From assembly GCF_003334405.1 (NCBI RefSeq), contig NZ_QOWM01000016.1: a stretch of 64,000 nt of DNA, one strand, 5' to 3'. Position numbers and translations under genes: made by a program. The notes beneath the pieces were generated by a model, which made no database searches, was not told where the DNA came from, and saw only the letters and a program-made list of their open reading frames with translations. The stretch is from Escherichia coli (GTDB lineage: Bacteria > Pseudomonadota > Gammaproteobacteria > Enterobacterales > Enterobacteriaceae). Numbering within the stretch: the stretch's first letter is position 1; each line of letters starts with the position of its first letter. Below, one piece after another: positions 8,902 through 63,799 of the stretch.

Positions 8902-8911
8902 CCCCCGGAGT

Positions 8912-8992
8912 GTAGGCCTGATAAGACGCTATCAGCGTCGCATCAGGCATCCTGCTCAAATGCCGGATGCGGCGTAAACGCCTTATCCTGCC
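8912..8992. repeat. REP/BIME between convergent yiiM and cpxA
   Basis: GTAGGCCTGATAAGACGCTATCAGCGTCGCATCAGGC and a degenerate GCCGGATGCGGCGTAAACGCCTTATCC palindrome. Confidence 0.8.
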
Positions 8993-9006
8993 TGCAAATG
9001 CGAAGT

Positions 9007-10380
9007 TTAACTCCGCTTATACAGCGGCAACCAAATCACCAGCCGTAAACCGCCCAGCGGGCTGTCTTCTGCCTTCACCCAGCCACGATGCTGCTGAATG
9101 GCGGTTTCAACAATCGCCAGCCCCAAACCTGTACCGCCAGATTCACGATCGCGTGCTTCATCGGTACGATAGAACGGACGGAAAATCTGTTCGCGATCTT
9201 CCGGGCTAACGCCAGGACCATCGTCGTCCACCGTAATGGTGATACCGTCTTTATCTACCGCAAAGCCCACTTCAATCTTCGTATGGGAATAACGCAGAGC
9301 ATTACGAACAATGTTTTCCAGCGCACTTTCCAGGGCGTTCGGATTGCCGTACAGCGGCCACGGCCCAGGCGGGAAGTTAACTGTCAACGACTTGCCCATT
9401 TGCTCGGCTTCGAACGCCGCGTTATCCAGCACTTCACTCCACAACTGGTTGGCTTTGATGGTTTCGCTAACCAGCGCGTTTTTTTGCTGATTACGTGACA
9501 TCACCAACAGATCGTTGATCATGCTGTCCAGACGTTGCGCTTCGGTTTCAATACGCTCCAGTTCCTTGCTTTCACCGCTACGACGGCGCAGTAACGCCGT
9601 ACCCAGTTGCAGACGCGTCAGCGGGGTGCGCAGCTCGTGAGAGATATCAGAAAGCAGACGCTGCTGAGAGGTCATCATGCGCTCCAGCGCGGTGACCATC
9701 TGGTTAAAACTGGCACCTGCGGCAAGGAATTCCTGTGGCCCCGCTTCCAGTTCCGGGTGCTGGCGTAAGTTTCCCTGGGCAACTTCATCGGCAGCGTTTT
9801 TCAGCTTACGCGCCGGTTTTGCCAGACTCCAGGCCAACCACAACAGCAGCGGCGTACTGACCAACATGGTGACAATCAGCAGTAATAGCGGGCGGTCAAA
9901 CAGTAAGTTAATGAAATCGGATTGAGAACTGCTGGCCGGACGAATCAGATAAAGTTGGTAATTATCTTCGCCATCACGCACGGAGAACGGACCGACCAGT
10001 TCCACGCGGCCATACTTTTTCTTCTGCGGATGATCGGCGTTATCGGCCTGACCAATAAAGTTACGAATGATCTGCATTTCGCTGCGTTCAGCGCCGATCA
10101 CGCGGCCTTCGGTGGTCACCAATAACAAACGCTGTCCTGGCGGTGCCCACTTATCAATCGCCCGGAACAGACGCCGCCACCACATTAAATCGTTGGGCGG
10201 ATCGTTCGCCAGCTCCGCTTCGACATGCTGCTCAATCATCAGCCCCTGACGCTGTTCGCTATCCAGAAGCTCGGTCATCTGGCGTGAATCGAGCTTGGGT
10301 AACATCAAAACCAACATCAACACCAGCGCCAGCGTCAGCCAGAAGATGGCGAAGATGCGCGCGGTTAAGCTGCCTATCAT
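9007..10380 (-). CDS. cpxA: envelope-stress sensor histidine kinase
   Basis: 457-aa ORF, MIGSLTARIFAIFWLTLALVLMLVLMLPKLDSRQ...; H-box SDISHELRTPLTRL; 4-bp ATGA overlap with cpxR. Confidence 0.95.
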   Translation of the reverse strand: MIGSLTARIFAIFWLTLALVLMLVLMLPKLDSRQMTELLDSEQRQGLMIEQHVEAELANDPPNDLMWWRRLFRAIDKWAPPGQRLLLVTTEGRVIGAERSEMQIIRNFIGQADNADHPQKKKYGRVELVGPFSVRDGEDNYQLYLIRPASSSQSDFINLLFDRPLLLLIVTMLVSTPLLLWLAWSLAKPARKLKNAADEVAQGNLRQHPELEAGPQEFLAAGASFNQMVTALERMMTSQQRLLSDISHELRTPLTRLQLGTALLRRRSGESKELERIETEAQRLDSMINDLLVMSRNQQKNALVSETIKANQLWSEVLDNAAFEAEQMGKSLTVNFPPGPWPLYGNPNALESALENIVRNALRYSHTKIEVGFAVDKDGITITVDDDGPGVSPEDREQIFRPFYRTDEARDRESGGTGLGLAIVETAIQQHRGWVKAEDSPLGGLRLVIWLPLYKRS

Positions 10381-11075
10381 GAAGCAGAAACCATCAGATA
10401 GCCGCGACCACGCAAGGTTTTAAACCACGGGTGACCATCTTTACGATCCGGCAGTTTACGACGCAGGTTGGAAATGTGCATATCAATAGCGCGGTCGAAA
10501 GGCGTCAGGCGTTTGCCCAACACTTCCTGGCTTAAATGTTCACGGGAAACCACCTGACCCAGATGCTGTGCCAGCAAATAGAGCAGGGTAAACTCAGTAC
10601 CGGTTAACTCCAGCGTTTGCCCGTCGAAGCTGGCTTCCTGACGGCCTGGATTCAGCACTAAGGCATCAACTTCCAGTGTCGGTGAACCGTTGTCGTTGTT
10701 TTGCTGTTGCTCGCTCCAGTGCGAACGGCGCAGGATCGCGCGAATACGTGCCACCAGCTCACGATCATTAAACGGTTTCGGGAGATAGTCATCTGCGCCC
10801 AGCTCAAGGCCGAGAACGCGATCAAGTTCACTGCCGCGCGCCGTCAACATAATGACAGGCGTCTGGTGTGTCTGGCGAAGTGCTTTTAATGTGTCGATAC
10901 CATTTTTCTTCGGCATCATTACGTCAAGCAAAAGTAAATCAATGCTGTCGTCCAGAAGATCAAGCGCCTGTTCCCCATCGTGGGCAACAATCACGTTGAA
11001 GCCTTCCATCTCGAGCAGCTCCTTTAATAGGGAAGTCAGCTCTCGGTCATCATCAACTAACAGGATTTTATTCAT
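10377..11075 (-). CDS. cpxR: envelope-stress response regulator (OmpR family)
   Basis: 232-aa ORF, MNKILLVDDDRELTSLLKELLEMEGFNVIVAHDGEQALDLL... Confidence 0.95.
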   Translation of the reverse strand: MNKILLVDDDRELTSLLKELLEMEGFNVIVAHDGEQALDLLDDSIDLLLLDVMMPKKNGIDTLKALRQTHQTPVIMLTARGSELDRVLGLELGADDYLPKPFNDRELVARIRAILRRSHWSEQQQNNDNGSPTLEVDALVLNPGRQEASFDGQTLELTGTEFTLLYLLAQHLGQVVSREHLSQEVLGKRLTPFDRAIDMHISNLRRKLPDRKDGHPWFKTLRGRGYLMVSAS

Positions 11076-11130
11076 TGTTTAAATACCTCCGAGGCAGAAA
11101 TTACGTCATCAGACGTCGCTAATCCATGAC

Positions 11131-11145
11131 TTTACGTTGTTTTAC
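11131..11145. promoter_or_regulatory. CpxR box (GTAAA-N5-GTAAA, here as TTTAC-GTTGT-TTTAC) in the cpxRA / cpxP divergent region
   Basis: Exact tandem pentamer with 5-bp spacer between divergent cpxR and cpxP; matches the published CpxR-P consensus as recalled. Confidence 0.75.
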
Positions 11146-11224
11146 ACCCCCTGACGCATGTTTGCAGCCTGAATCGTAAACTCTCTATCGTTGAATCGCG
11201 ACAGAAAGATTTTGGGAGCAAATG

Positions 11225-11725
11225 ATGCGCATAGTTACCGCTGCCGTCATGGCCTCAACGCTGGCAGTCAGTTCATTAAGCCACGCTGCTGAAGTCGGTT
11301 CAGGCGATAACTGGCATCCGGGTGAAGAACTTACGCAGCGCAGTACGCAGAGCCATATGTTCGACGGCATAAGTTTAACCGAACATCAGCGTCAGCAGAT
11401 GCGAGATCTTATGCAACAGGCCCGGCACGAACAGCCTCCTGTTAATGTTAGCGAACTGGAGACAATGCATCGCCTTGTCACCGCAGAAAATTTTGATGAA
11501 AACGCTGTGCGCGCACAGGCAGAAAAAATGGCGAATGAGCAAATTGCTCGTCAGGTTGAGATGGCAAAAGTCCGCAACCAAATGTATCGCCTGTTAACGC
11601 CGGAGCAGCAAGCGGTTTTAAACGAGAAACATCAACAACGAATGGAGCAGTTGCGTGACGTGACGCAATGGCAAAAAAGTTCATCGTTGAAGCTATTGAG
11701 TAGTAGCAACTCACGTTCCCAGTAG
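11225..11725 (+). CDS. cpxP: periplasmic Cpx pathway inhibitor/adaptor
   Basis: Track ORF 11222..11725 trimmed to [33 protein letters not shown] (166 aa); signal peptide, two LTxxQ motifs. Confidence 0.93.
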
Positions 11726-11734
11726 TAAACCCTG

Positions 11735-11792
11735 TTTTCCTTGCCATAGACACCATCCCTGTCTTCCCCCACATGCTGTGGGGGTTTTTTTT
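11735..11792 (+). ncRNA. cpxQ: CpxQ-like 3'-UTR-derived sRNA (cpxP 3' UTR plus terminator)
   Basis: About 58 nt from just after the cpxP stop to the terminator CCCCCACA-TGC-TGTGGGGG-TTTTTTTT (11766..11792); matches my recollection of CpxQ; the 5' end is processing-defined and approximate. Confidence 0.5.
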
Positions 11793-11873
11793 ATCCTCAA
11801 TTTGCCTGCTGCTTAATGCATTGCAGATGATTTGCTTCCGTTATACTAGCGTCAGTTGATAGCGGGAGTATTT

Positions 11874-12776
11874 ATGAATCAATCTTATGGACGGCTGGTC
11901 AGTCGGGCGGCGATTGCTGCGACGGCGATGGCTTCGCTGCTATTGCTGATTAAAATTTTTGCATGGTGGTATACCGGGTCGGTGAGTATTCTCGCCGCGC
12001 TGGTGGATTCGCTGGTGGATATCGGCGCGTCGTTGACGAATTTATTGGTGGTGCGATATTCCCTGCAACCTGCCGACGATAATCACTCGTTTGGTCACGG
12101 TAAAGCTGAGTCCCTCGCGGCGCTGGCGCAAAGTATGTTTATCTCCGGTTCGGCACTATTCCTGTTTTTGACGGGTATTCAACATCTGATATCTCCAACA
12201 CCGATGACAGATCCAGGCGTCGGGGTTATCGTGACAATTGTGGCGCTAATTTGTACGATTATCCTTGTCTCGTTTCAGCGTTGGGTGGTGCGGCGGACGC
12301 AAAGCCAGGCGGTGCGGGCTGATATGCTACATTACCAGTCTGATGTTATGATGAACGGCGCAATTCTGCTGGCGCTGGGGTTGTCCTGGTACGGCTGGCA
12401 TCGCGCCGATGCTCTGTTTGCATTGGGAATCGGCATCTATATTTTATATAGCGCGTTACGCATGGGATATGAGGCGGTACAGTCATTACTGGATCGCGCA
12501 TTGCCTGATGAGGAACGGCAAGAAATTATTGATATCGTGACTTCCTGGCCGGGTGTTAGCGGCGCTCACGATCTTCGCACGCGGCAGTCAGGGCCGACCC
12601 GCTTTATTCAGATTCATTTGGAAATGGAAGACTCTCTGCCTTTGGTTCAGGCACATATGGTGGCGGATCAGGTAGAGCAGGCTATTTTACGGCGTTTTCC
12701 GGGATCGGATGTAATTATCCATCAGGACCCCTGTTCCGTCGTACCCAGGGAGGGTAAACGGTCTATGCTTTCATAA
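11874..12776 (+). CDS. fieF: cation-diffusion-facilitator Fe/Zn efflux transporter
   Basis: Track ORF 11856..12776 trimmed to [35 protein letters not shown] (300 aa). Confidence 0.9.
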
Positions 12777-12956
12777 TCAGTATAAAAGAGAGCCAGACCC
12801 GCATTTTGTGTATAAAATACCGCCATTTGGCCTGACCTGAATCAATTCAGCAGGAAGTGATTGTTATACTATTTGCACATTCGTTGGATCACTTCGATGT
12901 GCAAGAAGACTTCCGGCAACAGATTTCATTTTGCATTCCAAAGTTCAGAGGTAGTC

Positions 12957-13919
12957 ATGATTAAGAAAATCGGTGTGTTGACAAGCGGCGGTGATGCGCC
13001 AGGCATGAACGCCGCAATTCGCGGGGTTGTTCGTTCTGCGCTGACAGAAGGTCTGGAAGTAATGGGTATTTATGACGGCTATCTGGGTCTGTATGAAGAC
13101 CGTATGGTACAGCTAGACCGTTACAGCGTGTCTGACATGATCAACCGTGGCGGTACGTTCCTCGGTTCTGCGCGTTTCCCGGAATTCCGCGACGAGAACA
13201 TCCGCGCCGTGGCTATCGAAAACCTGAAAAAACGTGGTATCGACGCGCTGGTGGTTATCGGCGGTGACGGTTCCTACATGGGTGCAATGCGTCTGACCGA
13301 AATGGGCTTCCCGTGCATCGGTCTGCCGGGCACTATCGACAACGACATCAAAGGCACTGACTACACTATCGGTTTCTTCACTGCGCTGAGCACCGTTGTA
13401 GAAGCGATCGACCGTCTGCGTGACACCTCTTCTTCTCACCAGCGTATTTCCGTGGTGGAAGTGATGGGCCGTTATTGTGGAGATCTGACGTTGGCTGCGG
13501 CCATTGCCGGTGGCTGTGAATTCGTTGTGGTTCCGGAAGTTGAATTCAGCCGTGAAGACCTGGTAAACGAAATCAAAGCGGGTATCGCGAAAGGTAAAAA
13601 ACACGCGATCGTGGCGATTACCGAACATATGTGTGATGTTGACGAACTGGCGCATTTCATCGAGAAAGAAACCGGTCGTGAAACCCGCGCAACTGTGCTG
13701 GGCCACATCCAGCGCGGTGGTTCTCCGGTGCCTTACGACCGTATTCTGGCTTCCCGTATGGGCGCTTACGCTATCGATCTGCTGCTGGCAGGTTACGGCG
13801 GTCGTTGTGTAGGTATCCAGAACGAACAGCTGGTTCACCACGACATCATCGACGCTATCGAAAACATGAAGCGTCCGTTCAAAGGTGACTGGCTGGACTG
13901 CGCGAAAAAACTGTATTAA
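12957..13919 (+). CDS. pfkA: 6-phosphofructokinase I
   Basis: Track ORF 12861..13919 trimmed to [29 protein letters not shown] (320 aa); the PFK GGDGS motif is present. Confidence 0.95.
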
Positions 13920-13976: not shown

Positions 13977-14074
13977 CCTGATGCGCTTCGCTTATCAGGC
14001 CTACATGAATTCTGCAATTTATTGAATTTGCAAACTTTTGTAGGCCGGATAAGGCGTTCGCGCCGCATCCGGCA
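13977..14074. repeat. REP/BIME between pfkA and sbp
   Basis: GCCTGATGCGCTTCGCTTATCAGGCCTAC and GTAGGCCGGATAAGGCGTTCGCGCCGCATCCGGCA; spurious ORF 13959..14156 lies inside. Confidence 0.85.
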
Positions 14075-27161: not shown

Positions 27162-27692
27162 TTACGCTTTGTAGCTTAATTCTTCGATGGTGTGGAAATG
27201 GTTGGTATAGATGCAAATGTCGCCTGCAATATCCAACGCCTTTTCAGCAATTTCACGGGCGCTAAGTTCAGTGTTTTCTAACAGCGCGCGCGCCGCAGCC
27301 TGGGCGTAAGGGCCGCCGGAGCCGATAGCAATAAGATCGTTTTCTGGCTGCACCACGTCACCGTTACCGGTGATGATAAGCGATGCAGTTTCATCCGCGA
27401 CTGCCAGCAGTGCTTCAAGTTTGCGCAGCATGCGATCGGTACGCCAGTCTTTTGCCAGCTCAACGGCGGCTTTGACCAGATGGCCCTGATGCATTTCCAG
27501 TTTACGTTCAAACAGTTCGAACAGCGTAAAAGCATCCGCAGTACCGCCCGCAAAGCCCGCGATGACTTTGTCGTTGTACAGACGGCGGACCTTTTTCACG
27601 TTGCCTTTCATTACGGTATTGCCCAACGTGGCCTGACCATCACCAGCGATGACCACATGGCCGTTACGGCGTACGCTTACTATAGTTGTCAC
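27162..27692 (-). CDS. hslV: ATP-dependent protease subunit HslV
   Basis: 176-aa [42 protein letters not shown]...; N-terminal Thr nucleophile after Met removal. Confidence 0.96.
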
Positions 27693-27751
27693 GAGCTGAC
27701 CCCTTGGTTACGAATACAGAGTACAAACCCCGTACAAAAGTACGGGGCATA

Positions 27752-43336: not shown

Positions 43337-44440
43337 TTATTCCCACTCTTGCAGGAAACGCTGACCGTACTGGTCGGCTACCAGCAGAGCGGCGTAAACC
43401 TGATCTGGCGTCGCGCCGCCAGGCATGTTGTGAATGGTTTCACCTTCTGCACATGCCGCTTCTGCCACAATTCGCATTTTCGCCGGGACATCTTCTTTAA
43501 TATCCAGTTGAGCGAGAGTTATTGGCAAACCTACCGCATGGCTAAGGGCAGCTACGGTTTCGATTTCCTCCACCGGCGCATTTTCCAGAACCAGCTGCGT
43601 CAGCGTACCGAATGCCACTTTTTCACCGTGATAATAGTGATGCGCGTCCGGGATAGCGGTCAGGCCGTTATGCACTGCGTGCGCCGCAGCCAGACCACCA
43701 CTTTCAAAACCAACACTGCTCAAATAGGTGTTCGCTTCAATCACGCGCTCCAGCGCCGGAGTCACTACATGCTGTTCGGCAGCAAGCATCGCTTTTTCGC
43801 CTTCTTCCAGCAGGGTGTTGTAGCACAGTTCAGCCAGTGCCAGCGCAGCCTGGGTGCACTTGCCGCCCGCCATGGTGGTCGCGCCGCTACGAGAGCAGGC
43901 ACGCGCTTCAAACCAGGTTGCCAGCGCATCGCCGATACCCGCCGCTAACAGACGTGCAGGTGCGCCAGCGACGATTTTGGTGTCGACAATGACCATATTC
44001 GGGTTATTTGGCAACAGCAGATAGCGGTCAAACTCACCCTCATCGGTGTAGATAACAGACAATGCGCTGCACGGTGCATCGGTAGAGGCGATAGTCGGTG
44101 CGATCGCTACCGGAACACCCATGAAATGTGCCAGTGCTTTGGCAGTATCGAGGGTTTTTCCGCCACCGATACCGAGAATTGCGCCACACTGCGCAGTCTC
44201 CGCGATGCCACGCAGACGGTCGATCTCATTTTGCGAACATTCACCGCCAAACGGCGCAATTTCTACTACCAGTCCAGCATCTTTAAAGCTTTTCTCGACA
44301 GTGGATTGAGCAAAACCTAAAACAAATTTGTCACCCACCACTAACCAGCGTTCTGCCAGCGGCTTCAGGTATTCGCCCAGACGATTAATCACATCAGCGC
44401 CCTGGATGTATTTACCCGGTGATTGAATAATGCGGTCCAT
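43337..44440 (-). CDS. gldA: glycerol dehydrogenase
   Basis: Track ORF 43337..44479 trimmed to [39 protein letters not shown] (367 aa). Confidence 0.93.
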
Positions 44441-44450
44441 AATTGCTCCT

Positions 44451-45113
44451 TTAGAGATGAGTAGTGCCAAATGCGGCATTCCAGTCGTGTTCGAACTTCT
44501 CTATAGCTGACTCTACCGCAGGGGTGTTGAGCATTTGTTGCGCTACATCTAAGGGCAGGGTGATGGATTCACATCCTGCCAGTAAACAGTCCAGCGCCTG
44601 ACGCGGCGTTTTAAAGCTGGCTGCCAGCACCATGCTTTCTGGCGCGTGCATTTCTAACAGCGTTTGCAGCTCCTGAACCGTACGAATGCCGTCTCCGCCC
44701 TGGGCATCTACGCGGTTAACATACGGAGCAACGTATTTTGCCCCTGCCAGTGCGGCTAATAACCCTTGTGCGGCGCTATATACAGCAGTGCCAAGTGTAG
44801 TAATACCCTCTTTTTTCAGTATTTTAATTGCTGCCAGACCTTCGGAAGTCACCGGGATTTTCACCACAATACCCGGAATAGCGTCGCGCAGGCGCTTCGC
44901 TTCTTCCACCATCCCCTGCGCGTCGCGGCTCATGGTCTGAGCAAACAGAATGCCCTCATCACCAATCGCTTTTTGCAGACGCGGCAGCACTTCCCATATG
45001 GACTCCTTGCTGGCAGCGATAATGCTCGGGTTAGTTGTCACCCCGGCAATGGGGAATATGCGTGCCAGACGTTCGACTTCTGCGACGTTAGCGGTGTCCA
45101 GATACAGTTCCAT
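44451..45113 (-). CDS. fsaB: fructose-6-phosphate aldolase 2
   Basis: 220-aa [46 protein letters not shown]...; transaldolase-like fold. Confidence 0.9.
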
Positions 45114-45124: not shown

Positions 45125-47626
45125 TTACAGTTCCAGTTCATGTTGCAGCAGGCTGGCGATAGCGTCGGCAGAGGCGGCGTTAACCAGCGCGTTACGGAAT
45201 TCTTCGTGCATGATGCGGCGAGCGAGGCGCGAGAAAATGCGCATATGCTGATCGCCCGCAGCGTGTTTGTTCAGGGTTAACATAATGATGAATTGCGCTT
45301 CATCATCGCCCCAGCGCACCGGCGCTTGCAGACGCGCCACGCTGATGGTGGATTGCTCAATGTGTTCTGATTTGCTGTGTGGAATGGCAAAACTAAAGCC
45401 CAGACCGGTAGAGAAAACGGCCTCGCGCGCCCACAAGTCGGCTTCCAGTTTACGCGGATAGCGGCAGCGGCCCGCCAGCAGCAGGTTATCGGTCATGCCT
45501 TTGAGCACTTCTTCTTTGCTGCGCCAGTCGCTTTCCAGTGTGATGCACTCGGCGGTGACCAGCGGTGCGTCTTGTTGGGTCATGCGGAATTGCGCCAGCA
45601 GGTGTTCCACTTCCAGCGAAGTACGGCAGGCCATTGCCTGGTTGAGCAACTTGCGGCACTCACGGCTATCAAGTTGCGCCATCCGAGCTTTCGCCGCCGG
45701 AATTGATGGTGCGCTCATGCTGAGTTCATCCAGCCCTAAGCCGACCAGCAACGGCAGCACGGAACCTTTCGCTCCCAGCTCACCGCACAGACCAATCCAT
45801 TTGCCCTGGCGATGCACCGCTTGCACGGCGTAATCGAGCGCCCGCAAGAATGCCGGATTCAGGCTGTTGTAGTGACGAGTAACCTTAGCGTTATCGCGAT
45901 CCACCGCCAGCAGATACTGCGTCAGGTCATTACTACCAATACTAAAGAAATCAATCTCTTCGCAGCATTGATCGATGATGAACATCACCGACGGCACTTC
46001 CAGCATGATGCCGAGCTGGATTTTCTCATCAAACGGAATGTGTTCGTTACGTAGTTGCTGTTTGGCTTCCGCCAGTTTTTCTTTCACCCATAAGATCTCT
46101 TCCATTGAGGAGATCATCGGGATCATGATTTTCAGGCTGCCGTGAGCGGAGGCGCGGAGGATCGACCGTAGCTGCGTGGTAAACAACGACGCGTACTCTT
46201 CATAAATACGCACGGCGCGATAACCGAGGAACGGGTTTGCCTCTGCGGGAATGTTCAGATAATCAACGGGTTTGTCGCCGCCAATGTCCATAGTGCGCAC
46301 AATAATGCTGCGTCCGTTGGCGGATTCCAGCGCCTGACAAAAAATGTTGTACAACTCGCTTTCGCCCGGTGCGCTGGTGCGATCCATATAGAGCATTTCA
46401 GTGCGGAACAAACCAACGCCTTCCGCACCATTGCCGAATGCGGCCTGCGCTTCCACGGAGTGAGCGATGTTAGCGGCAATTTCAATGCGGATACCGTCAG
46501 CGGTACGGGCTTGTTGGGTCAGCCAGACACGCTGTTGCTCACGCAGGGCGTCCTGTACGCGGGCTTCTTGCTGATAATAACGAGCTACGGCTTCCCCTGG
46601 CTCAACCACAATCGCCCCGGCGTTGCCGTCGATATAAATCGTTTGTTGCTGCCACGGAGTAAGGGCATCAATATCCACACCAACCAGCGTTGGAATGTTG
46701 AACGAACGGGCAAGGATCACCGTATGTGAGGTGGTGCCGCCGCTTTTGAGCAACAATCCTTTGAGGTGATTTTTATCCAGTTCGAGGAACTGGCTGGGGG
46801 TCAGTTCATCAGCCATACAAATGGCGGGCTGCGTCAGTTTGCCCGGTGCCGGGAAGCGTTGCTCACCGTAGATTTGCTGGAGTAACTGGAAGCAGACGTC
46901 GCGTACGTCCAGGGCACGTTCTTGCAGGTAGCTGCTGCTGGAACGGGAAAACTCTTCGCAAAAGTGATTCGCGCTGGCAACAATTGCTTCGGCGCAGCTT
47001 AATCCGGCGCTGACGCCTGCCAGTAAATGTTCGCGCAGGGAAGTATCGCCAGCCAGGGATCGGTGAGCTTCCAGAATCGCGCTGGTAGCACCGTCGCTAT
47101 CCAGCAGACGAAACTCAATGTTTTTCAGTACCAGCGTCAGGCCGTTTTCCAGTGCGGATTGCTCGGCGTCAACGCCTTTGGCTGCGGGAAGATTACCCAG
47201 CGCATTGAGATCTAAAGAAGAGATCGGCGTCAGAATGCCGCCTGCACTACCGCTGCACACGGTGCGGGCGCGGATAATTTGCGGATTCAGATTGGTCAGT
47301 GAAACCGGCAGTGGTTCCAGTTCGTCAGATTTAACTTCCGCCAGCGGCGCATCGCAGTGGGGGAATTCATCGCGCAGCCATTGGCTTAAACGCTGGTGCG
47401 CTTCCTGTTCGTCGGCCCCGGAAATCAGTAACTGGCAGTTATCGCCCGCCAGCGTATCGGTGCCAATCAGCGCAAGGGCGCTTTTGGCGTTGCCCTTGCG
47501 GTCAGTGCGCAGGTTATGCCACTCAATTTGTGATGAAAAAGTATTACACAGCGTTTCAACGTGGCTTGCCGGACGCGCATGTACGCCGTTAGGTAGCTCA
47601 CAAATAAATTCCACAATCAGGGCCAT
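45125..47626 (-). CDS. ptsA: multiphosphoryl transfer protein (fused PTS domains: IIA-like, HPr-like, enzyme I-like)
   Basis: 833-aa [31 protein letters not shown]... (HPr-like N-terminus with the phospho-His context GVHARPA) followed by a PEP-utilising enzyme I-like region. Confidence 0.9.
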
Positions 47627-47934
47627 TGCCTCTCTCCCGGTACGGTTTTCTGTTTACAGGATAAGAGCGCACGGCAACGGCCTGCCATGTGACAAATCTG
47701 CCAAAAGCTGGACAAATGTAATGTAACCGTCAATTTGCGACGCGTCTCACAAGACGCTGTTTTGCGGCATGCTTCCGGTTTATCGCAAGTTATGAGGCGG
47801 ATCGCATTTTTGTACTGATATTACAAAAGTCCAGTAAATGGCCTTTTTATCCACTGTTTGCTCCGCCTGCGATTGCCTATTGTTTCCTCCATCAAAAATA
47901 TGGACATGGGCTTTCGCAAGCCCGGGAGCAGCTT

Positions 47935-49014
47935 ATGAATGAGTTGGTGCAGATCCTGAAAAATACCCGTCAGCATTTAATGACGGGCGTTTCACACATG
48001 ATTCCCTTCGTGGTATCGGGCGGTATTTTGCTGGCGGTTTCCGTCATGTTGTATGGCAAAGGCGCAGTGCCGGATGCCGTAGCCGATCCAAATCTGAAAA
48101 AACTGTTTGATATCGGCGTTGCGGGCTTGACGCTGATGGTGCCTTTCCTCGCAGCGTACATCGGTTATTCCATTGCAGAGCGTTCTGCGCTGGCTCCGTG
48201 CGCTATCGGTGCCTGGGTTGGTAACAGCTTTGGTGCGGGCTTCTTTGGTGCACTGATCGCCGGGATTATCGGCGGCATCGTGGTGCATTACCTGAAGAAA
48301 ATTCCGGTGCATAAAGTTCTGCGCTCGGTGATGCCTATCTTCATTATTCCTATCGTCGGCACACTGATTACCGCAGGCATCATGATGTGGGGCTTGGGCG
48401 AGCCTGTAGGGGCGTTGACCAACAGCCTGACTCAGTGGCTTCAGGGGATGCAGCAGGGCAGCATTGTTATGCTGGCGGTGATCATGGGTCTGATGCTGGC
48501 GTTCGATATGGGCGGTCCGGTTAACAAAGTGGCCTATGCCTTCATGCTGATTTGCGTTGCTCAGGGTGTTTATACCGTGGTGGCCATCGCTGCCGTGGGT
48601 ATTTGTATCCCGCCGCTGGGGATGGGGCTGGCGACGCTGATTGGTCGTAAAAATTTCTCCGCAGAAGAGCGCGAAACCGGCAAAGCGGCACTGGTGATGG
48701 GCTGTGTTGGCGTTACTGAAGGGGCGATTCCTTTCGCCGCTGCCGATCCGCTGCGTGTCATTCCTTCCATCATGGTCGGTTCAGTTTGTGGTGCAGTAAC
48801 TGCGGCGCTGGTCGGTGCGCAGTGCTATGCAGGCTGGGGTGGTCTGATTGTGCTGCCGGTGGTTGAAGGCAAGCTGGGTTATATCGCAGCAGTGGCTGTC
48901 GGAGCAGTGGTGACGGCTGTTTGTGTGAACGTGCTGAAAAGTCTGGCGCGTAAAAATGGGTCTTCGACTGATGAAAAAGAAGACGACCTGGATTTGGATT
49001 TTGAAATTAATTAA
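47935..49014 (+). CDS. frwC: fructose-like PTS permease IIC component
   Basis: 359-aa polytopic membrane ORF, MNELVQILKNTRQHLMTGVSHMIPFVVSGGILLAVSVMLYG... Confidence 0.88.
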   Translation: MNELVQILKNTRQHLMTGVSHMIPFVVSGGILLAVSVMLYGKGAVPDAVADPNLKKLFDIGVAGLTLMVPFLAAYIGYSIAERSALAPCAIGAWVGNSFGAGFFGALIAGIIGGIVVHYLKKIPVHKVLRSVMPIFIIPIVGTLITAGIMMWGLGEPVGALTNSLTQWLQGMQQGSIVMLAVIMGLMLAFDMGGPVNKVAYAFMLICVAQGVYTVVAIAAVGICIPPLGMGLATLIGRKNFSAEERETGKAALVMGCVGVTEGAIPFAAADPLRVIPSIMVGSVCGAVTAALVGAQCYAGWGGLIVLPVVEGKLGYIAAVAVGAVVTAVCVNVLKSLARKNGSSTDEKEDDLDLDFEIN

Positions 49015-49028: not shown

Positions 49029-49349
49029 ATGACGAAAATTATTGCAGTAACCGCATGTCCTTCAGGTGTTGCCCATACCTATATGGCAGCAGAGGCGCTG
49101 GAAAGTGCCGCGAAAGCGAAAGGCTGGGAAGTGAAAGTAGAAACCCAGGGGTCAATTGGTCTGGAAAATGAACTGACTGCGGAAGATGTGGCGAGCGCTG
49201 ATATGGTGATTCTGACCAAAGATATCGGCATCAAGTTTGAAGAGCGTTTTGCTGGCAAGACCATCGTGCGCGTCAACATCAGCGATGCAGTAAAACGTGC
49301 TGACGCCATTATGAGCAAAATTGAAGCTCACCTGGCGCAAACCGCTTAA
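49029..49349 (+). CDS. frwB: fructose-like PTS IIB component
   Basis: 106-aa ORF, MTKIIAVTACPSGVAHTYMAAEALESAAKAKGWEVKVETQG...; phospho-Cys context TACPSG. Confidence 0.88.
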   Translation: MTKIIAVTACPSGVAHTYMAAEALESAAKAKGWEVKVETQGSIGLENELTAEDVASADMVILTKDIGIKFEERFAGKTIVRVNISDAVKRADAIMSKIEAHLAQTA

Positions 49350-49399
49350 GTTCTTCTCCCGCTCGCAAGGGCGGGTTCGCTTTCCCACAGGAGTTCCTC

Positions 49400-51697
49400 A
49401 TGACGAATCGTATCTCTCGCCTCAAAACTGCACTGTTTGCCAATACCCGTGAAATCTCGCTGGAGCGGGCGCTGCTTTATACCGCCAGCCATCGGCAAAC
49501 CGAAGGCGAACCGGTGATATTGCGCCGGGCGAAAGCAACAGCGTATATCCTTGAACATGTTGAAATTTCGATTCGTGATGAAGAACTGATTGCCGGTAAC
49601 CGCACCGTAAAACCGCGCGCCGGGATTATGTCGCCGGAAATGGACCCTTACTGGCTGCTGAAAGAGCTGGATCAATTCCCGACGCGTCCGCAGGACCGCT
49701 TTGCTATCAGCGAAGAAGATAAACGTATCTACCGTGAAGAGTTGTTCCCGTACTGGGAAAAACGTTCGATGAAAGATTTCATCAACGGGCAGATGACAGA
49801 TGAAGTAAAAGCCGCGACCAACACGCAGATTTTCAGCATCAACCAGACGGATAAAGGCCAGGGGCACATTATTATTGATTACCCACGCCTGTTGAATCAC
49901 GGGCTGGGTGAGCTGGTGGCACAGATGCAGCAACATTGTCAGCAACAGCCGGAGAATCACTTTTATCAGGCCGCGTTGTTACTGCTGGAAGCCTCGCAGA
50001 AACACATTTTGCGTTACGCCGAACTGGCGGAAACGATGGCGGCAAACTGCACAGATGCCCAGCGTCGCGAAGAGCTGCTGACTATTGCAGAGATCTCCCG
50101 CCATAACGCGCAACATAAGCCGCAGACGTTCTGGCAGGCGTGCCAGTTATTCTGGTACATGAACATCATTCTGCAATACGAATCCAACGCCAGTTCGCTA
50201 TCGTTGGGGCGCTTCGACCAGTATATGTTGCCGTTCTATCAGACATCATTAACCCAGGGCGAAGATGCGGCGTTCCTGAAAGAACTGCTCGAATCTTTAT
50301 GGGTGAAATGCAACGACATCGTGCTGTTGCGCTCCACCAGTAGCGCGCGTTATTTCGCCGGTTTCCCGACCGGCTATACCGCACTGCTCGGCGGGTTAAC
50401 CGAGAACGGACGTAGCGCGGTGAACGTGCTTTCGTTCCTTTGCCTTGACGCCTATCAAAGCGTGCAATTACCGCAACCGAACCTCGGCGTGCGCACTAAC
50501 GCCTTGATCGACACGCCGTTCCTGATGAAAACCGCCGAAACCATTCGCTTCGGCACCGGTATTCCGCAAATCTTTAACGATGAAGTGGTGGTGCCAGCGT
50601 TCCTCAACCGTGGCGTTTCGCTGGAAGATGCGCGCGACTATTCCGTAGTGGGCTGTGTGGAATTATCTATTCCCGGCAGAACCTACGGCTTGCATGACAT
50701 CGCGATGTTTAATCTGCTGAAAGTGATGGAAATCTGCCTGCATGAAAATGAAGGCAATGCTGCGCTGACTTATGAAGGTTTACTGGAGCAGATCCGCGCC
50801 AAGATCAGCCACTACATCACCCTGATGGTTGAGGGCAGCAATATTTGTGATATCGGCCATCGCGACTGGGCACCTGTACCGCTGCTCTCATCGTTTATCA
50901 GCGATTGTCTGGAAAAAGGCCGCGATATTACCGATGGCGGCGCGCGTTATAACTTCTCCGGCGTACAGGGGATCGGTATCGCCAACCTGAGCGATTCTCT
51001 CCATGCGTTGAAAGGGATGGTTTTTGAGCAACAGCGTTTAAGTTTTGACGAATTGCTGTCGGTATTAAAAGCCAACTTCGCAACGCCAGAAGGCGAAAAA
51101 GTCCGCGCTCGCTTAATTAACCGCTTCGAGAAATACGGTAACGATATCGACGAGGTGGATAACATCAGCGCCGAACTGTTGCGCCACTACTGCAAAGAAG
51201 TGGAAAAATACCAGAACCCGCGCGGCGGCTACTTCACGCCGGGATCGTATACCGTTTCTGCTCACGTCCCGTTGGGATCGGTGGTTGGCGCGACGCCAGA
51301 CGGTCGTTTTGCCGGAGAACAGCTGGCAGACGGCGGCTTGTCACCCATGCTGGGCCAGGACGCACAAGGGCCAACAGCGGTACTGAAGTCAGTCAGTAAG
51401 CTCGATAACACGCTGCTGTCTAACGGTACGTTGCTGAACGTGAAATTCACTCCGGCGACCCTGGAAGGTGAAGCAGGATTACGCAAACTGGCCGACTTCT
51501 TACGGGCGTTTACCCAGCTTAAGTTACAACATATTCAGTTTAACGTGGTGAACGCCGACACGTTGCGGGAAGCGCAACAGCGCCCACAAGATTATGCCGG
51601 GCTGGTGGTGCGCGTTGCCGGATACAGCGCCTTCTTTGTCGAACTGTCGAAGGAGATCCAGGATGACATCATCCGCCGGACAGCGCATCAGCTGTAA
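49400..51697 (+). CDS. pflD: glycyl-radical enzyme, PFL family (annotated formate acetyltransferase 2)
   Basis: 765-aa ORF; C-terminal glycyl-radical motif RVAGYSA (Gly codon at 51620..51622); active-site loop VGCVE (Cys codon 50654..50656, Glu 50660..50662). Confidence 0.9.
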   Translation: MTNRISRLKTALFANTREISLERALLYTASHRQTEGEPVILRRAKATAYILEHVEISIRDEELIAGNRTVKPRAGIMSPEMDPYWLLKELDQFPTRPQDRFAISEEDKRIYREELFPYWEKRSMKDFINGQMTDEVKAATNTQIFSINQTDKGQGHIIIDYPRLLNHGLGELVAQMQQHCQQQPENHFYQAALLLLEASQKHILRYAELAETMAANCTDAQRREELLTIAEISRHNAQHKPQTFWQACQLFWYMNIILQYESNASSLSLGRFDQYMLPFYQTSLTQGEDAAFLKELLESLWVKCNDIVLLRSTSSARYFAGFPTGYTALLGGLTENGRSAVNVLSFLCLDAYQSVQLPQPNLGVRTNALIDTPFLMKTAETIRFGTGIPQIFNDEVVVPAFLNRGVSLEDARDYSVVGCVELSIPGRTYGLHDIAMFNLLKVMEICLHENEGNAALTYEGLLEQIRAKISHYITLMVEGSNICDIGHRDWAPVPLLSSFISDCLEKGRDITDGGARYNFSGVQGIGIANLSDSLHALKGMVFEQQRLSFDELLSVLKANFATPEGEKVRARLINRFEKYGNDIDEVDNISAELLRHYCKEVEKYQNPRGGYFTPGSYTVSAHVPLGSVVGATPDGRFAGEQLADGGLSPMLGQDAQGPTAVLKSVSKLDNTLLSNGTLLNVKFTPATLEGEAGLRKLADFLRAFTQLKLQHIQFNVVNADTLREAQQRPQDYAGLVVRVAGYSAFFVELSKEIQDDIIRRTAHQL

Positions 51698-52541
51698 CGT
51701 TGTGGAAACGCGCCGCGATGATGTGGCGCGCATTTTCAACATTCAGCGTTATTCACTGAATGACGGCGAGGGCATTCGTACGGTGGTCTTTTTTAAAGGC
51801 TGTCCGCATCTTTGCCCGTGGTGTGCTAATCCGGAGTCGATCTCCGGCAAAATCCAGACGGTACGCAGAGAGGCGAAATGTCTGCACTGTGCGAAATGTT
51901 TGCGTGATGCGGATGAATGCCCCTCCGGGGCGTTTGAACGGATTGGTCGCGATATCAGCCTTGACGCTCTGGAACGGGAAGTGATGAAAGATGACATTTT
52001 CTTTCGCACGTCCGGCGGCGGCGTCACGCTTTCTGGCGGCGAAGTGTTAATGCAGGCGGAGTTTGCTACCCGTTTTTTACAGCGACTGCGGCTGTGGGGT
52101 GTGTCATGCGCCATTGAAACTGCCGGAGACGCACCAGCCAGCAAGCTATTACCGCTGGCGAAATTGTGCGATGAAGTGTTGTTCGATTTAAAAATTATGG
52201 ACGCGACTCAGGCGCGGGATGTGGTGAAGATGAACCTGCCACGCGTGCTGGAGAATCTGCGTTTGCTGGTGAGTGAGGGCGTCAACGTGATCCCGCGTTT
52301 ACCGCTGATCCCTGGTTTCACGCTCAGCCGGGAGAATATGCAGCAGGCGCTGGATGTACTGATCCCGCTGAATATCAGGCAGATCCATCTGTTACCGTTT
52401 CATCAGTACGGCGAACCGAAATACCGCCTGCTGGGGAAAACATGGTCGATGAAAGAGGTGCCTGCGCCGTCGTCAGCTGATGTGGCAACGATGCGCGAAA
52501 TGGCAGAACGGGCCGGACTTCAGGTTACCGTGGGAGGTTAA
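51663..52541 (+). CDS. pflC: glycyl-radical enzyme activating enzyme (radical SAM)
   Basis: Track ORF 51594..52541 trimmed to MTSSAGQRISCNVVETRRDDVARIF (292 aa); radical-SAM cluster motif CPHLCPWC plus a second Cys-rich stretch CLHCAKCLRDADECP; 35-bp overlap with pflD. Confidence 0.88.
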   Translation: MTSSAGQRISCNVVETRRDDVARIFNIQRYSLNDGEGIRTVVFFKGCPHLCPWCANPESISGKIQTVRREAKCLHCAKCLRDADECPSGAFERIGRDISLDALEREVMKDDIFFRTSGGGVTLSGGEVLMQAEFATRFLQRLRLWGVSCAIETAGDAPASKLLPLAKLCDEVLFDLKIMDATQARDVVKMNLPRVLENLRLLVSEGVNVIPRLPLIPGFTLSRENMQQALDVLIPLNIRQIHLLPFHQYGEPKYRLLGKTWSMKEVPAPSSADVATMREMAERAGLQVTVGG

Positions 52542-52542: not shown

Positions 52543-52884
52543 ATGGCATACCTGGTGGCAGTAACCGCCTGCGTAAGCGGCGTGGCGCATACTTATATGG
52601 CGGCGGAACGGCTGGAAAAGTTGTGCCTGTTAGAGAAGTGGGGAGTCAGCATTGAAACTCAGGGCGCGCTGGGAACGGAGAATCGTTTAGCGGATGAGGA
52701 TATCCGCCGGGCGGATGTTGCTCTGTTGATTACGGATATCGAGCTTGCCGGTGCCGAGCGATTTGAACATTGCCGCTATGTGCAATGCAGCATCTACGCA
52801 TTCCTGCGTGAGCCGCAGCGGGTAATGAGCGCGGTGCGCAAAGTGCTTTCTGCGCCGCAGCAAACCCATCTTATTCTGGAGTAG
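52543..52884 (+). CDS. frwD: fructose-like PTS IIB-type component
   Basis: Track ORF 52480..52884 trimmed to MAYLVAVTACVSGVAHTYMAAERLEKL (113 aa); paralogous to frwB (same TAC.SGVAHTYMAAE motif). Confidence 0.85.
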   Translation: MAYLVAVTACVSGVAHTYMAAERLEKLCLLEKWGVSIETQGALGTENRLADEDIRRADVALLITDIELAGAERFEHCRYVQCSIYAFLREPQRVMSAVRKVLSAPQQTHLILE

Positions 52885-53722
52885 TCGGTTTTTCTGTCAG
52901 TTGGCTGTGGTACTGCCGGCGATATTCCGACGGCGAGCGTTCGGTGTTTTTACGAAACAGACGGCAGAAGTAGTTGCTGTCGACAAAGCCGCAGGCGTGC
53001 GCCACTTCTTTTACCTTCAGGTCATAGCCTTTCAATAACGTCTTAGCGTGCTCCAGTCGCGTGTGATTCAGGTATTCGTTAAAACCAATGGCCCCCGTTT
53101 TTTGAAACAGGTGCGAGAGGTAATTTGGCGAAATATAAAACGCCTGTGCAACAGATTCGCGGGTAAGCGCGGAGGCATAGCGTTCGTCGATATAATCGCG
53201 AATAGCTTCAAATAGTGCCTGGCTGCGTGAGGCGGTCTGGATTTGGCTGCCAAGCAAATCGCGGCAGTGGCTAAGCAGGCTGGCGACGATAAGCCTTGCC
53301 GTTTGCTGCTCCTGCGGCTGCATTTGCATTTCATTGAGCGTTTGTAGCAGAAAAGAACCTATGCGTGGGCCGCGTCGGGCGACGTGTTGCTTCGCCAGAT
53401 TTTGATATTGTTTGCCATCCCATTGCACGACGCTGAAGCCGAGTTGCTGTTTGCCAAACAGCACGCTAAAGGTAGTAGCGGGGGCTTGCCATTGTGGAAA
53501 ATTCCAGCCACCAGCAGGAACGTACAGCACATCGCCGGGAACTAACGTTGCTCCAGCGCCGGTATCAACAAACTCACCTTCCAGCACAATTTCCAGCCGT
53601 GGAAAATCGACCTGATACGCAAGATCGGGCACCGGGCCGTTACTGCTGGCAAAGTAAATCTGGCGCAGGGACAGCGGGCCGTTGATCAGGCGGGAGAGCA
53701 GATAGCTGACGTCGTGATACAT
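52871..53722 (-). CDS. yijO: AraC-family transcriptional regulator
   Basis: 283-aa ORF; C-terminal AraC-type HTH (…NEYLNHTRLEHAKTLLKGYDLKVKEVAHACGFVDSNYFCRLFRKNTERSPSEYRRQ). Confidence 0.85.
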   Translation of the reverse strand: MYHDVSYLLSRLINGPLSLRQIYFASSNGPVPDLAYQVDFPRLEIVLEGEFVDTGAGATLVPGDVLYVPAGGWNFPQWQAPATTFSVLFGKQQLGFSVVQWDGKQYQNLAKQHVARRGPRIGSFLLQTLNEMQMQPQEQQTARLIVASLLSHCRDLLGSQIQTASRSQALFEAIRDYIDERYASALTRESVAQAFYISPNYLSHLFQKTGAIGFNEYLNHTRLEHAKTLLKGYDLKVKEVAHACGFVDSNYFCRLFRKNTERSPSEYRRQYHSQLTEKPTTPE

Positions 53723-63683: not shown

Positions 63684-63799
63684 AAAAAAAGCGGATCCTG
63701 GAGATCCGCAAAAGTTCACGTTGGCTTTAGTTATTCGAGTTGAGAAACTCTCGAAACGGGCAGTGACTTCAAGGGTTAAAAGAGGTGCCGCTCCGTTTC
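63684..63799 (-). ncRNA. oxyS: OxyS oxidative-stress small RNA
   Basis: The minus strand reads GAAACGGAGCGGCACCTCTTTTAACCCTTGAAGTCACTGCCCGTTTCGAGAGTTTCTCAACTCGAATAACTAAAGCCAACGTGAACTTTTGCGGATCTCCAGGATCCGCTTTTTTTT, matching the OxyS sequence as I recall it, including the terminal hairpin GCGGATCTCCAGGATCCGC plus U-tract; divergent from oxyR. The 3' end is approximate. Confidence 0.85.

What the first reader, a model, noticed from the sequence alone, without database searches (positions are those of the whole stretch)
49400..51697. PflD has a GCVE active-site loop and an RVAGY glycyl-radical motif, so it may not be a formate acetyltransferase
Seen in sequence: PflD ends with RVAGYSA (glycyl-radical signature, Gly around residue 741) and its catalytic loop reads VVGCVELS (Cys around residue 419, Glu two residues later). 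From memory, pyruvate formate-lyase has two adjacent cysteines at this position, whereas a single Cys with a nearby Glu is the pattern I associate with glycyl-radical dehydratases and lyases. The usual annotation of pflD as 'formate acetyltransferase 2' may therefore be homology-transferred and wrong; the true substrate is unknown to me.
Basis: partly seen in the sequence, partly recalled or inferred. Interest (0 to 1): 0.55.

Follow-up and report, generated by a model that had tools for sequence, protein, structure and literature searches.

The report
Mislabelled glycyl-radical sugar-phosphate lyase PflD

Summary
The ORF at 49400-51697 (+) encodes the 765-aa E. coli K-12 PflD, with VVGCVELS at 416-423 (Cys419, Glu421) and RVAGYSA at 738-744 (Gly741). 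It has no Cys-Cys pair. Alignment puts Gly418-Cys419-Val-Glu421 on Gly432-Cys433-Val-Glu435 of B12-independent glycerol dehydratase and on Cys418-Cys419-Val-Ser421 of PflB. Both pyruvate-binding arginines of PflB are replaced (His156, Met436). The curated model for true pyruvate formate-lyase scores 122 bits against a cutoff of 994, while the PFL2/glycerol-dehydratase model scores 1356 against 678. The protein is 100% identical to PDB 8yjo ('Probable dehydratase PflD'). Ma et al. (JACS 2024), as summarised in PMC12441222, showed that PflD cleaves 1,5-anhydromannitol-6-phosphate to 1-deoxyfructose-6-phosphate, and that its paralogue YbiW does the same with 1,5-anhydroglucitol-6-phosphate. The surrounding genes fit this function: a fructose-type PTS, the activase PflC, the aldolase FsaB and the dehydrogenase GldA. 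What remains useful is that RefSeq and NCBIfam NF007437 still carry the outdated name.

The parts
49400..51697 (+). pflD: 765-aa glycyl-radical enzyme of the PFL2/glycerol-dehydratase (eliminase) class; published function 1,5-anhydromannitol-6-phosphate C-O lyase
   Evidence: ORF. 100% identical to PDB 8yjo and to K-12 b3951. Pfam PF02901 at residues 1-626 and PF01228 at 645-747. TIGR01774 scores 1356 bits against a cutoff of 678. Function from PMC12441222 citing Ma et al. 2024.
50645..50668 (+). Cys loop VVGCVELS (residues 416-423). [quoted passage not shown]
   Evidence: Aligns to glycerol dehydratase G432-C433-V-E435 and PflB C418-C419-V-S421.
49865..49867 (+). His156 codon. It is equivalent to glycerol dehydratase His164 and occupies the column of the PflB pyruvate-binding Arg176.
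   Evidence: The column is His in 105 of 129 cluster representatives.
51611..51631 (+). Gly loop RVAGYSA (residues 738-744). Gly741 (51620-51622) is the glycyl-radical site.
   Evidence: Aligns to PflB Gly734 and glycerol dehydratase Gly763.
51663..52541 (+). pflC: radical-SAM activase of PflD (292 aa). It has CX3CX2C at residues 47-54 and one extra CX2CX2CX6C motif. Its start overlaps the pflD stop by 35 nt.
   Evidence: NF007483 and TIGR02494 match. The nearest solved structure is PFL-AE 3c8f.
47935..49014 (+). frwC: fructose-type PTS EIIC permease. Its role as the importer of the anhydro-polyol is inferred.
   Evidence: NF007787, TIGR01427. The PTS phosphorylation step is stated in PMC12441222.
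49029..49349 (+). frwB: PTS EIIB
52543..52884 (+). frwD: second PTS EIIB, starting 1 nt after the pflC stop
45125..47626 (-). ptsA: multidomain HPr-EI-EIIA(Fru) phosphoryl-transfer protein, transcribed divergently from frwC
   Evidence: Pfam domains are listed for the Edwardsiella orthologue.
44451..45113 (-). fsaB: fructose-6-phosphate aldolase 2. Inferred to cleave 1-deoxyfructose-6-P into glyceraldehyde-3-P and hydroxyacetone.
   Evidence: The paralogue fsaA sits next to ybiW-ybiY. The role comes from my memory of Ma et al. 2024 plus gene context.
43337..44440 (-). gldA: L-1,2-propanediol/glycerol dehydrogenase. Inferred to reduce hydroxyacetone to 1,2-propanediol.
   Evidence: NF047954. 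The role comes from memory and inference.
52871..53722 (-). yijO: AraC-family regulator, convergent with frwD and overlapping it by 14 nt. Candidate regulator of the cassette (inferred).
   Evidence: It travels with the cassette in Edwardsiella tarda.
47736..47751 (.). CRP-like palindrome TGCGACGCGTCTCACA in the ptsA/frwC divergent intergenic region
   Evidence: This is a consensus match only; function was not tested.

Best explanation
PflD is a glycyl-radical enzyme of the eliminase (PFL2/glycerol-dehydratase) class. It is not a pyruvate formate-lyase. Its published reaction is ring-opening C-O cleavage of 1,5-anhydro-D-mannitol-6-phosphate to 1-deoxy-D-fructose-6-phosphate. The proposed mechanism runs as follows. 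PflC, a radical-SAM activase with a [4Fe-4S] cluster, abstracts a hydrogen from Gly741. The glycyl radical then generates a thiyl radical on Cys419. The thiyl radical abstracts H from C2 of the substrate. Glu421, tuned by His156, takes the proton of the C2 hydroxyl, giving a ketyl radical. The ketyl radical expels the ring oxygen O5 from the neighbouring C1 by beta-scission. The resulting C1 radical takes H back from Cys419, producing the C1 methyl ketone. In the cell, the Frw PTS (FrwC, FrwB, FrwD with PtsA) imports and 6-phosphorylates the anhydro-polyol. FsaB splits the product into glyceraldehyde-3-P and hydroxyacetone, and GldA reduces hydroxyacetone to 1,2-propanediol. Status of the steps: the catalytic residues, family membership and gene context are shown here. 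The substrate, the product and the PTS step come from the literature at second hand. The individual radical steps and the FsaB and GldA roles are inferred by analogy with glycerol dehydratase, from my memory of the primary paper and from gene context.
For: The protein is 100% identical to PDB 8yjo 'Probable dehydratase PflD'. PMC12441222, citing Ma et al. JACS 2024, states that YbiW and PflD cleave 1,5-AG6P and 1,5-AM6P respectively to 1-deoxyfructose-6-P, after PTS phosphorylation and by way of a glycyl radical. The closest solved enzymes of known function are eliminases: glycerol dehydratase at E = 3.7e-195 and diol dehydratase at 4.6e-179, against PflB at 5.6e-33. The CXE loop and His156 align with glycerol dehydratase C433/E435/H164. 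CXE is the documented eliminase signature, in which the Glu hydrogen-bonds a substrate hydroxyl. TIGR01774 is passed and TIGR01255 is failed. The gene sits inside a PTS operon with its own activase, next to fsaB and gldA. The paralogue ybiW likewise sits beside an activase (ybiY) and the paralogous aldolase fsaA. The fsa-ptsA | frwCB-pflDC-frwD | yijO cassette occurs intact in different flanks in Edwardsiella tarda. PflD does not bind the formate channel FocA, whereas PflB and TdcE do.
Against: The primary paper (JACS 2024, 146:26187) is not in the held library. The substrate assignment therefore rests on a citing review and on the PDB entry name, and the downstream FsaB and GldA steps rest on my memory of its abstract. 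No activity could be tested here. RefSeq, PGAP and NCBIfam still call the protein formate C-acetyltransferase, but that is a name and not data. No FNR-like site (up to 2 mismatches) was found in the ptsA/frwC intergenic region, although an anaerobic enzyme might be expected to have one; this is weak negative evidence. How much 1,5-anhydromannitol occurs in the gut is unknown to me.
Confidence: 0.9

Rival explanations
1. PflD is a genuine pyruvate formate-lyase isoenzyme ('formate acetyltransferase 2'), converting pyruvate and CoA to acetyl-CoA and formate, as the RefSeq name says.
For: It carries the name in K-12 RefSeq and PGAP and in the NCBIfam NF007437 equivalog. It shares the PFL-like fold and the Gly-radical domain.
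Against: There is no Cys-Cys pair, because the PflB Cys418 position is Gly418. PflB Arg176 and Arg435 are replaced by His156 and Met436; their pyruvate-binding role is recalled from the PFL crystal-structure literature and was not checked here. Identity to PflB is only 24%. TIGR01255 scores 121.9 bits against a cutoff of 994. PflD shows no FocA interaction. A different reaction has been published.
Confidence: 0.01
2. PflD is a small-diol dehydratase, acting on glycerol or 1,2-propanediol like Clostridium butyricum DhaB1 or the Roseburia diol dehydratase.
For: It is 42% identical to glycerol dehydratase over the full length. It shares CXE, His156 (= H164), Ser266 (= S282), Asp433 (= D447) and Tyr617 (= Y640). 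gldA, a glycerol/propanediol dehydrogenase, lies nearby.
Against: The gene is embedded in a sugar PTS operon next to a sugar-phosphate aldolase. There is no microcompartment and no 1,3-propanediol or propionaldehyde dehydrogenase gene. Glycerol dehydratase His281 and Tyr339 are Ser265 and Gly325 in PflD, which suggests a larger pocket. The published substrate is a hexitol phosphate.
Confidence: 0.02
3. PflD is an eliminase-type ring-opening lyase, but its main physiological substrate is a different PTS-delivered anhydro- or deoxy-sugar phosphate, with 1,5-anhydromannitol-6-P serving only as a surrogate.
For: The operon has two EIIB proteins (FrwB, FrwD) and a fructose-type EIIC of untested specificity. 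A 43%-identical relative with the same VVGCVELS-type loop sits beside a sugar ABC transporter rather than a PTS, so this branch handles more than one kind of substrate.
Against: The review reports specific activity on AM6P and growth on the anhydro-polyols. According to my memory of the primary abstract, structure 8yjo is a substrate complex, which I could not verify here.
Confidence: 0.07

Closest known systems
[quoted passage not shown]
   Same: The sequence is 100% identical and the locus is the same.
   Different: Nothing differs. The window is the K-12-type gene.
E. coli YbiW (PflF), 1,5-anhydroglucitol-6-phosphate C-O lyase (PDB 8yjn, 8id7)
   Same: It is 39% identical and has the G-C-x-E loop, the His156 equivalent and RVAGYSAFF. 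It has an adjacent activase and an adjacent Fsa aldolase, and it gives the same product, 1-deoxyfructose-6-P.
   Different: It acts on the C2 epimer of the substrate. The pocket columns differ between PflD and YbiW: S265/H282, F319/S338, G325/Y344, D433/G456 and Y617/S662. No PTS genes lie at the ybiW locus.
B12-independent glycerol dehydratase DhaB1, Clostridium butyricum (PDB 1r8w/1r9d)
   Same: It is 42% identical over the full length, with E = 3.7e-195. It shares G-C-V-E, the His, the Asp after the loop and RVAGYSA. The proposed chemistry is the same: a ketyl radical followed by direct beta-elimination.
   Different: Its leaving group is a free hydroxyl, so water is lost and an aldehyde forms. 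In PflD the leaving group is the ring ether oxygen, so the reaction is an isomerisation to a methyl ketone. The substrate is a C3 polyol rather than a hexitol phosphate, and the gene context differs.
Pyruvate formate-lyase PflB / TdcE (EC 2.3.1.54)
   Same: It shares the ten-stranded barrel fold family (PF02901), the Gly-radical domain, the radical-relay Cys419 and activation by a radical-SAM enzyme.
   Different: It is 24-25% identical. PFL has Cys418-Cys419 and Arg176/Arg435, performs C-C cleavage with an acyl-enzyme intermediate and CoA, and is coupled to FocA. PflD has none of these.

Membership tests
Glycyl radical enzyme superfamily | C-terminal glycyl-radical domain with an RVxG[YFW] motif | tested here: met
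   RVAGY lies at 738-742. PF01228 matches residues 645-747 with E = 1.2e-30. Gly741 aligns with PflB Gly734 and glycerol dehydratase Gly763.
Glycyl radical enzyme superfamily | Conserved Cys-loop cysteine for thiyl-radical formation | tested here: met
   Cys419 is invariant in alignment A1 and is Cys in 128 of 129 cluster representatives.
Glycyl radical enzyme superfamily | Dedicated radical-SAM activase encoded nearby | tested here: met
   pflC overlaps the pflD stop by 35 nt, has CX3CX2C at residues 47-54 and matches TIGR02494.
Pyruvate formate-lyase (formate C-acetyltransferase, EC 2.3.1.54) | Adjacent catalytic cysteines (PflB Cys418-Cys419) | tested here: not met
   PflD has Gly418-Cys419 and no CC dipeptide anywhere. 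The roles of C418 and C419 are described in PMC10591478.
Pyruvate formate-lyase (formate C-acetyltransferase, EC 2.3.1.54) | Pyruvate-binding arginines (PflB Arg176, Arg435; their role is recalled from the PFL crystal-structure literature) | tested here: not met
   The aligned residues in PflD are His156 and Met436.
Pyruvate formate-lyase (formate C-acetyltransferase, EC 2.3.1.54) | Score above the curated cutoff of equivalog model TIGR01255 | tested here: not met
   The score is 121.9 bits against a cutoff of 994.2, and only the C-terminal residues 575-764 match.
Pyruvate formate-lyase (formate C-acetyltransferase, EC 2.3.1.54) | Catalytic conversion of pyruvate and CoA to acetyl-CoA and formate | not testable with these tools
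   No report of such activity turned up in the papers read. PMC5600444 lists the function as unresolved in 2016 and shows no FocA binding.
GRE eliminase class (PFL2/glycerol dehydratase family, TIGR01774) | CXE motif in the Cys loop | tested here: met
   C419-V420-E421 aligns on glycerol dehydratase C433-V-E435 and diol dehydratase C438-V-E440. The motif is defined in PMC7077986 and PMC8473560.
GRE eliminase class (PFL2/glycerol dehydratase family, TIGR01774) | Score above the curated cutoff of TIGR01774 | tested here: met
   The score is 1356 bits against a cutoff of 678.2, over the full length.
GRE eliminase class (PFL2/glycerol dehydratase family, TIGR01774) | His partner of the CXE glutamate (glycerol dehydratase His164, HypD His160) | tested here: met
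   His156 aligns with glycerol dehydratase His164. The column is His in 105 of 129 representatives.
Anhydro-hexitol-6-phosphate C-O lyases (PflD/YbiW type, Ma et al. 2024) | Sequence identity with the characterised enzyme | tested here: met
   The protein is 100% identical to PDB 8yjo and to K-12 b3951.
Anhydro-hexitol-6-phosphate C-O lyases (PflD/YbiW type, Ma et al. 2024) | Genomic linkage to a route that delivers sugar phosphate and to an Fsa-type aldolase | tested here: met
   frwCBD, ptsA and fsaB flank pflDC. The same cassette is present in Edwardsiella, and fsaA lies next to ybiW.
Anhydro-hexitol-6-phosphate C-O lyases (PflD/YbiW type, Ma et al. 2024) | Conversion of 1,5-anhydromannitol-6-P to 1-deoxyfructose-6-P | not testable with these tools
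   This is reported in the literature and was read only through the citing review PMC12441222.

The most novel reading that the evidence does not exclude
The PflD/Frw cassette may have a physiological substrate other than, or in addition to, 1,5-anhydromannitol. Candidates are another diet- or host-derived anhydro- or deoxy-hexitol taken up by the FrwC/FrwB/FrwD PTS. The two EIIB proteins and the AraC-type regulator YijO could then define an uncharacterised specificity and induction logic. My evidence does not exclude this, because the specificity of the transporter and the regulator was not tested and I could not read the primary kinetic data.
Probability: 0.08. Interest if true: 0.4.

Novelty: already known. 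Interest (0 to 1): 0.12.

Why it matters
The biology is already published. PflD and YbiW give E. coli and many gut bacteria an anaerobic, radical-based route for using 1,5-anhydro-hexitols as carbon sources. That route also provides a physiological role for the puzzling Fsa aldolases and for GldA. The practical point from this check concerns annotation. The name 'formate C-acetyltransferase' is still propagated by an NCBIfam 'equivalog' model (NF007437, release of June 2026). It appears in every E. coli RefSeq row listed (the gene matches in 5,418 of 5,426 genomes) and on nearly all of the named homologues among the 120 closest (89% identity or more), so metabolic reconstructions that count this gene as a formate source are wrong. 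A simple rule separates the two classes: G-C-x-E with His in the PflB Arg176 column marks the eliminase class, and C-C-V-S with Arg marks true PFL.

Tried and rejected
- **Primary paper:** I tried to read Ma et al. 2024 by DOI, but it is not held. I used the citing review and reference lists instead.
- **Older literature:** a search for the A. fulgidus PFL2 'dehydratase' proposal found nothing in the held library.
- **Close homologues:** The search for homologous proteins returned only Enterobacterales orthologues at 89% identity or more, which were useless for tracing diversity. The representative search supplied the diversity.
- **Distant relatives:** gene contexts of P0122 and P0126 were on short contigs and uninformative. 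P0124 showed an ABC-transporter context instead of a PTS.
- **Regulatory sites:** I looked for FNR and CRP sites in the divergent promoter region. Only a CRP-like site was found, and the sigma-70 consensus scan found no promoter-like site in that intergenic region.
- **RNA families:** the Rfam scan found no RNA family in or near pflD.
- **Antisense ORF:** I considered the 204-aa antisense ORF at 49346-49960 and rejected it as a mechanical ORF inside a highly conserved gene.
- **Structure prediction:** I ran no structure prediction or fold search, because the exact protein already has a solved structure.
- **Phosphate-binding residues:** basic residues shared by PflD and YbiW but absent from glycerol dehydratase (K88, R109, R516, R569, R571, K696) are only candidates. 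Without coordinates I could not tell which of them line the pocket.
Full report
**1. Observation**

The window is E. coli chromosome. The ORF at 49400-51697 (+) encodes 765 aa. It is 100% identical in protein sequence to K-12 MG1655 b3951/PflD. It is 97-100% identical in DNA to the gene in the listed E. coli genomes, and 5,418 of 5,426 complete genomes have a match.

- VVGCVELS lies at residues 416-423, with Cys419 and Glu421.
- RVAGYSA lies at residues 738-744, with Gly741.
- The ten cysteines include no adjacent pair.

**2. The loops are the homologous catalytic loops**

PDB sequence search gave the following:

| PDB entry | Molecule name | Result |
|---|---|---|
| 8yjo | 'Probable dehydratase PflD' | 100% identity |
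| 8id0 | formate C-acetyltransferase | 1058 bits |
| 1r8w | B12-independent glycerol dehydratase | E = 3.7e-195 |
| 5i2a | diol dehydratase | E = 4.6e-179 |
| several | CutC, HypD, IslA | E = 1e-117 to 1e-147 |
| 1h16 | PflB | E = 5.6e-33 |

The HMMER alignments have no gaps through the Cys loop. PflD 'dysvvgCvElsipg' lies over glycerol dehydratase 'DYGIIGCVEPQKPG' (Cys433, Glu435) and over diol dehydratase 'NYNIIGCVEPQVPG' (Cys438, Glu440).

A MAFFT alignment of PflD, YbiW, PflB, TdcE and glycerol dehydratase gave these correspondences, using literature numbering for PflB (positions):

| PflD | Glycerol dehydratase | PflB |
|---|---|---|
| Gly418 | Gly432 | Cys418 |
| Cys419 | Cys433 | Cys419 |
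| Glu421 | Glu435 | Ser421 |
| Gly741 | Gly763 | Gly734 |
| His156 | His164 | Arg176 |
| Met436 | Phe450 | Arg435 |

The pyruvate-binding role of PflB Arg176 and Arg435 is recalled from the PFL structural literature.

Among 129 full-length representatives of the nearest 50%-identity clusters, the columns read as follows:

- Cys in 128 of 129
- Gly before the Cys in 122 of 129
- Glu at +2 in 108 of 129
- the radical Gly in 119 of 129
- no representative with a Cys-Cys pair at positions 418-419

The CXE motif is described in the literature as the conserved signature of glycyl-radical eliminases, with the Glu hydrogen-bonding a substrate hydroxyl (PMC7077986; PMC8473560). The separate roles of PFL Cys418 and Cys419 are described in PMC10591478.

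**3. Family tests**

| Model | Kind | Score (bits) | Cutoff (bits) | Result |
|---|---|---|---|---|
| TIGR01774 | PFL2/glycerol-dehydratase subfamily | 1356 | 678 | passed |
| TIGR01255 | true PFL equivalog | 121.9 | 994 | failed; C-terminal domain only |
| NF007437 | equivalog, named 'formate C-acetyltransferase' | 1724.8 | 1109 | top hit |

NF007437 is the source of the PGAP name seen in every genome row and on nearly all of the named homologues. K-12 RefSeq says 'putative formate acetyltransferase 2', whereas the PDB entry says 'Probable dehydratase PflD'. Pfam gives PF02901 plus PF01228. PflD therefore meets the definition of a GRE and of the eliminase class, and it fails every sequence-testable defining feature of pyruvate formate-lyase.

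**4. What it does**

The literature already answers this. PMC12441222 summarises Ma et al., J. Am. Chem. Soc. [quoted passage not shown] According to that summary:

- 1,5-anhydroglucitol and 1,5-anhydromannitol are phosphorylated by a PTS.
- YbiW cleaves 1,5-AG6P and PflD cleaves 1,5-AM6P.
- Both give 1-deoxyfructose-6-phosphate, in a glycyl-radical-dependent, oxygen-sensitive reaction.
- The pathway supports growth of E. coli and other gut bacteria.

I could not open the primary paper. From memory of its abstract, FsaA/FsaB cleave the product to glyceraldehyde-3-P and hydroxyacetone, GldA reduces the latter to 1,2-propanediol, and the crystal structures are substrate complexes.

Before 2024 the function was listed as unresolved. 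PflD was also shown not to bind the formate channel FocA, unlike PflB and TdcE (PMC5600444).

**5. Context in the window supports the published function independently**

The gene order is as follows:

- gldA (43337-44440, -)
- fsaB (44451-45113, -)
- ptsA (45125-47626, -)
- a 308-bp divergent intergenic region
- frwC (47935-49014, +)
- frwB (49029-49349, +)
- pflD (49400-51697, +)
- pflC (51663-52541, +)
- frwD (52543-52884, +)
- yijO (52871-53722, -), an AraC-type regulator convergent with frwD

pflC overlaps the pflD stop by 35 nt, and frwD starts 1 nt after the pflC stop. PflC carries the radical-SAM CX3CX2C motif.

The paralogous GRE YbiW also lies next to its activase YbiY and the paralogous aldolase FsaA. 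Two GRE-activase pairs each sitting beside an Fsa aldolase is what the 1-deoxyfructose-6-P model predicts. In Edwardsiella tarda the block fsa-ptsA | frwC-frwB-pflD-pflC-frwD | yijO is intact in unrelated flanks and without gldA, so it behaves as a cassette.

**6. Mechanism (inferred by analogy with glycerol dehydratase-type direct elimination)**

1. PflC generates Gly741•.
2. The glycyl radical generates Cys419-S•.
3. The thiyl radical abstracts H from C2 of the substrate.
4. Glu421, with His156, deprotonates the C2-OH, giving a ketyl radical.
5. Beta-scission breaks the C1-O5 ring bond.
6. Cys419-SH returns H to C1, giving CH3-CO- (1-deoxyfructose-6-P).

The two C2 epimers give the same product. 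This explains why E. coli keeps two paralogues, whose pocket columns differ (PflD/YbiW): S265/H282, F319/S338, G325/Y344, D433/G456 and Y617/S662. Overall the reaction is an isomerisation through ether cleavage, so 'dehydratase' is only approximately right.

**7. Verdict**

The function was published in 2024 and the structure is deposited. What remains of interest is the persistent wrong name in RefSeq and NCBIfam, so I score interest low. The most novel reading not excluded is a different or broader physiological substrate for the Frw/PflD cassette. I give that a probability of about 0.08.

Noticed in passing
window 47627-47934 (ptsA/frwC divergent intergenic region): There is a near-consensus CRP-like palindrome, TGCGACGCGTCTCACA, at 47736-47751, and a perfect inverted repeat, TTTTGTA-N7-TACAAAA, at 47808-47828. 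No FNR-like site (up to 2 mismatches) is present, even though the operon encodes an oxygen-sensitive enzyme.
   Followed up: partly
window 51663-52541 (pflC): Besides the radical-SAM CX3CX2C (residues 47-54), PflC has only one extra Cys motif, C73-X2-C76-X2-C79-X6-C86. From memory, activases with two auxiliary clusters have about eight extra cysteines, so PflC may hold a single auxiliary cluster.
   Followed up: no
NCBIfam NF007437 / NF007483, applied to window 49400-52541: Two curated 'equivalog' models (release of June 2026) still name PflD 'formate C-acetyltransferase' and PflC '[formate-C-acetyltransferase]-activating enzyme'. The name appears in every listed E. coli RefSeq row and on nearly all of the named homologues among the 120 closest.
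   Followed up: yes
P0001 (ENA metagenome protein, 908 aa): This is a PflD variant with an internal tandem duplication of about residues 261-403. It was seen on one contig and is either an assembly artefact or a rare allele.
   Followed up: partly
NZ_AP038814.1 (E. coli TB354), hit H12: Only the last 32% of pflD is present, annotated beside a 'PEP-utilizing enzyme' fragment. This suggests a deletion running from within ptsA to within pflD in this strain.
   Followed up: no
L008 9001-14895 (metagenome contig NODE_2954, ERZ16299706): A 43%-identical relative with a PflD-like VVGCVELS loop sits in a cluster with a second GRE, two activases, an AraC regulator, a 623-aa protein with no Pfam hit and a sugar ABC transporter instead of a PTS. 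It may be an eliminase acting on a non-phosphorylated sugar.
   Followed up: no
L006 (Edwardsiella tarda ATCC 23685, GG739633.1) 4033-13389: The whole fsa-ptsA | frwCB-pflDC-frwD | yijO block, with PflD 91% identical, lies between unrelated genes (uvrC/pgsA side and ato genes) and lacks gldA. This is consistent with horizontal movement of the cassette.
   Followed up: partly
window 63690-63799 (-), 27690-27747 (-), 32359-32411 (+), 8915-8992 (-), 13997-14038 (-), 33391-33432 (+): Known RNA elements were found elsewhere in the window: OxyS sRNA, the ClpQY (hslVU) promoter element, the L31 leader, and naRNA4 and ES036 repeats. None lies near pflD.
   Followed up: no
window 49346-49960 (-): A 204-aa antisense ORF overlaps the 5' part of pflD. 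It has no support and is treated as a mechanical ORF.
   Followed up: no
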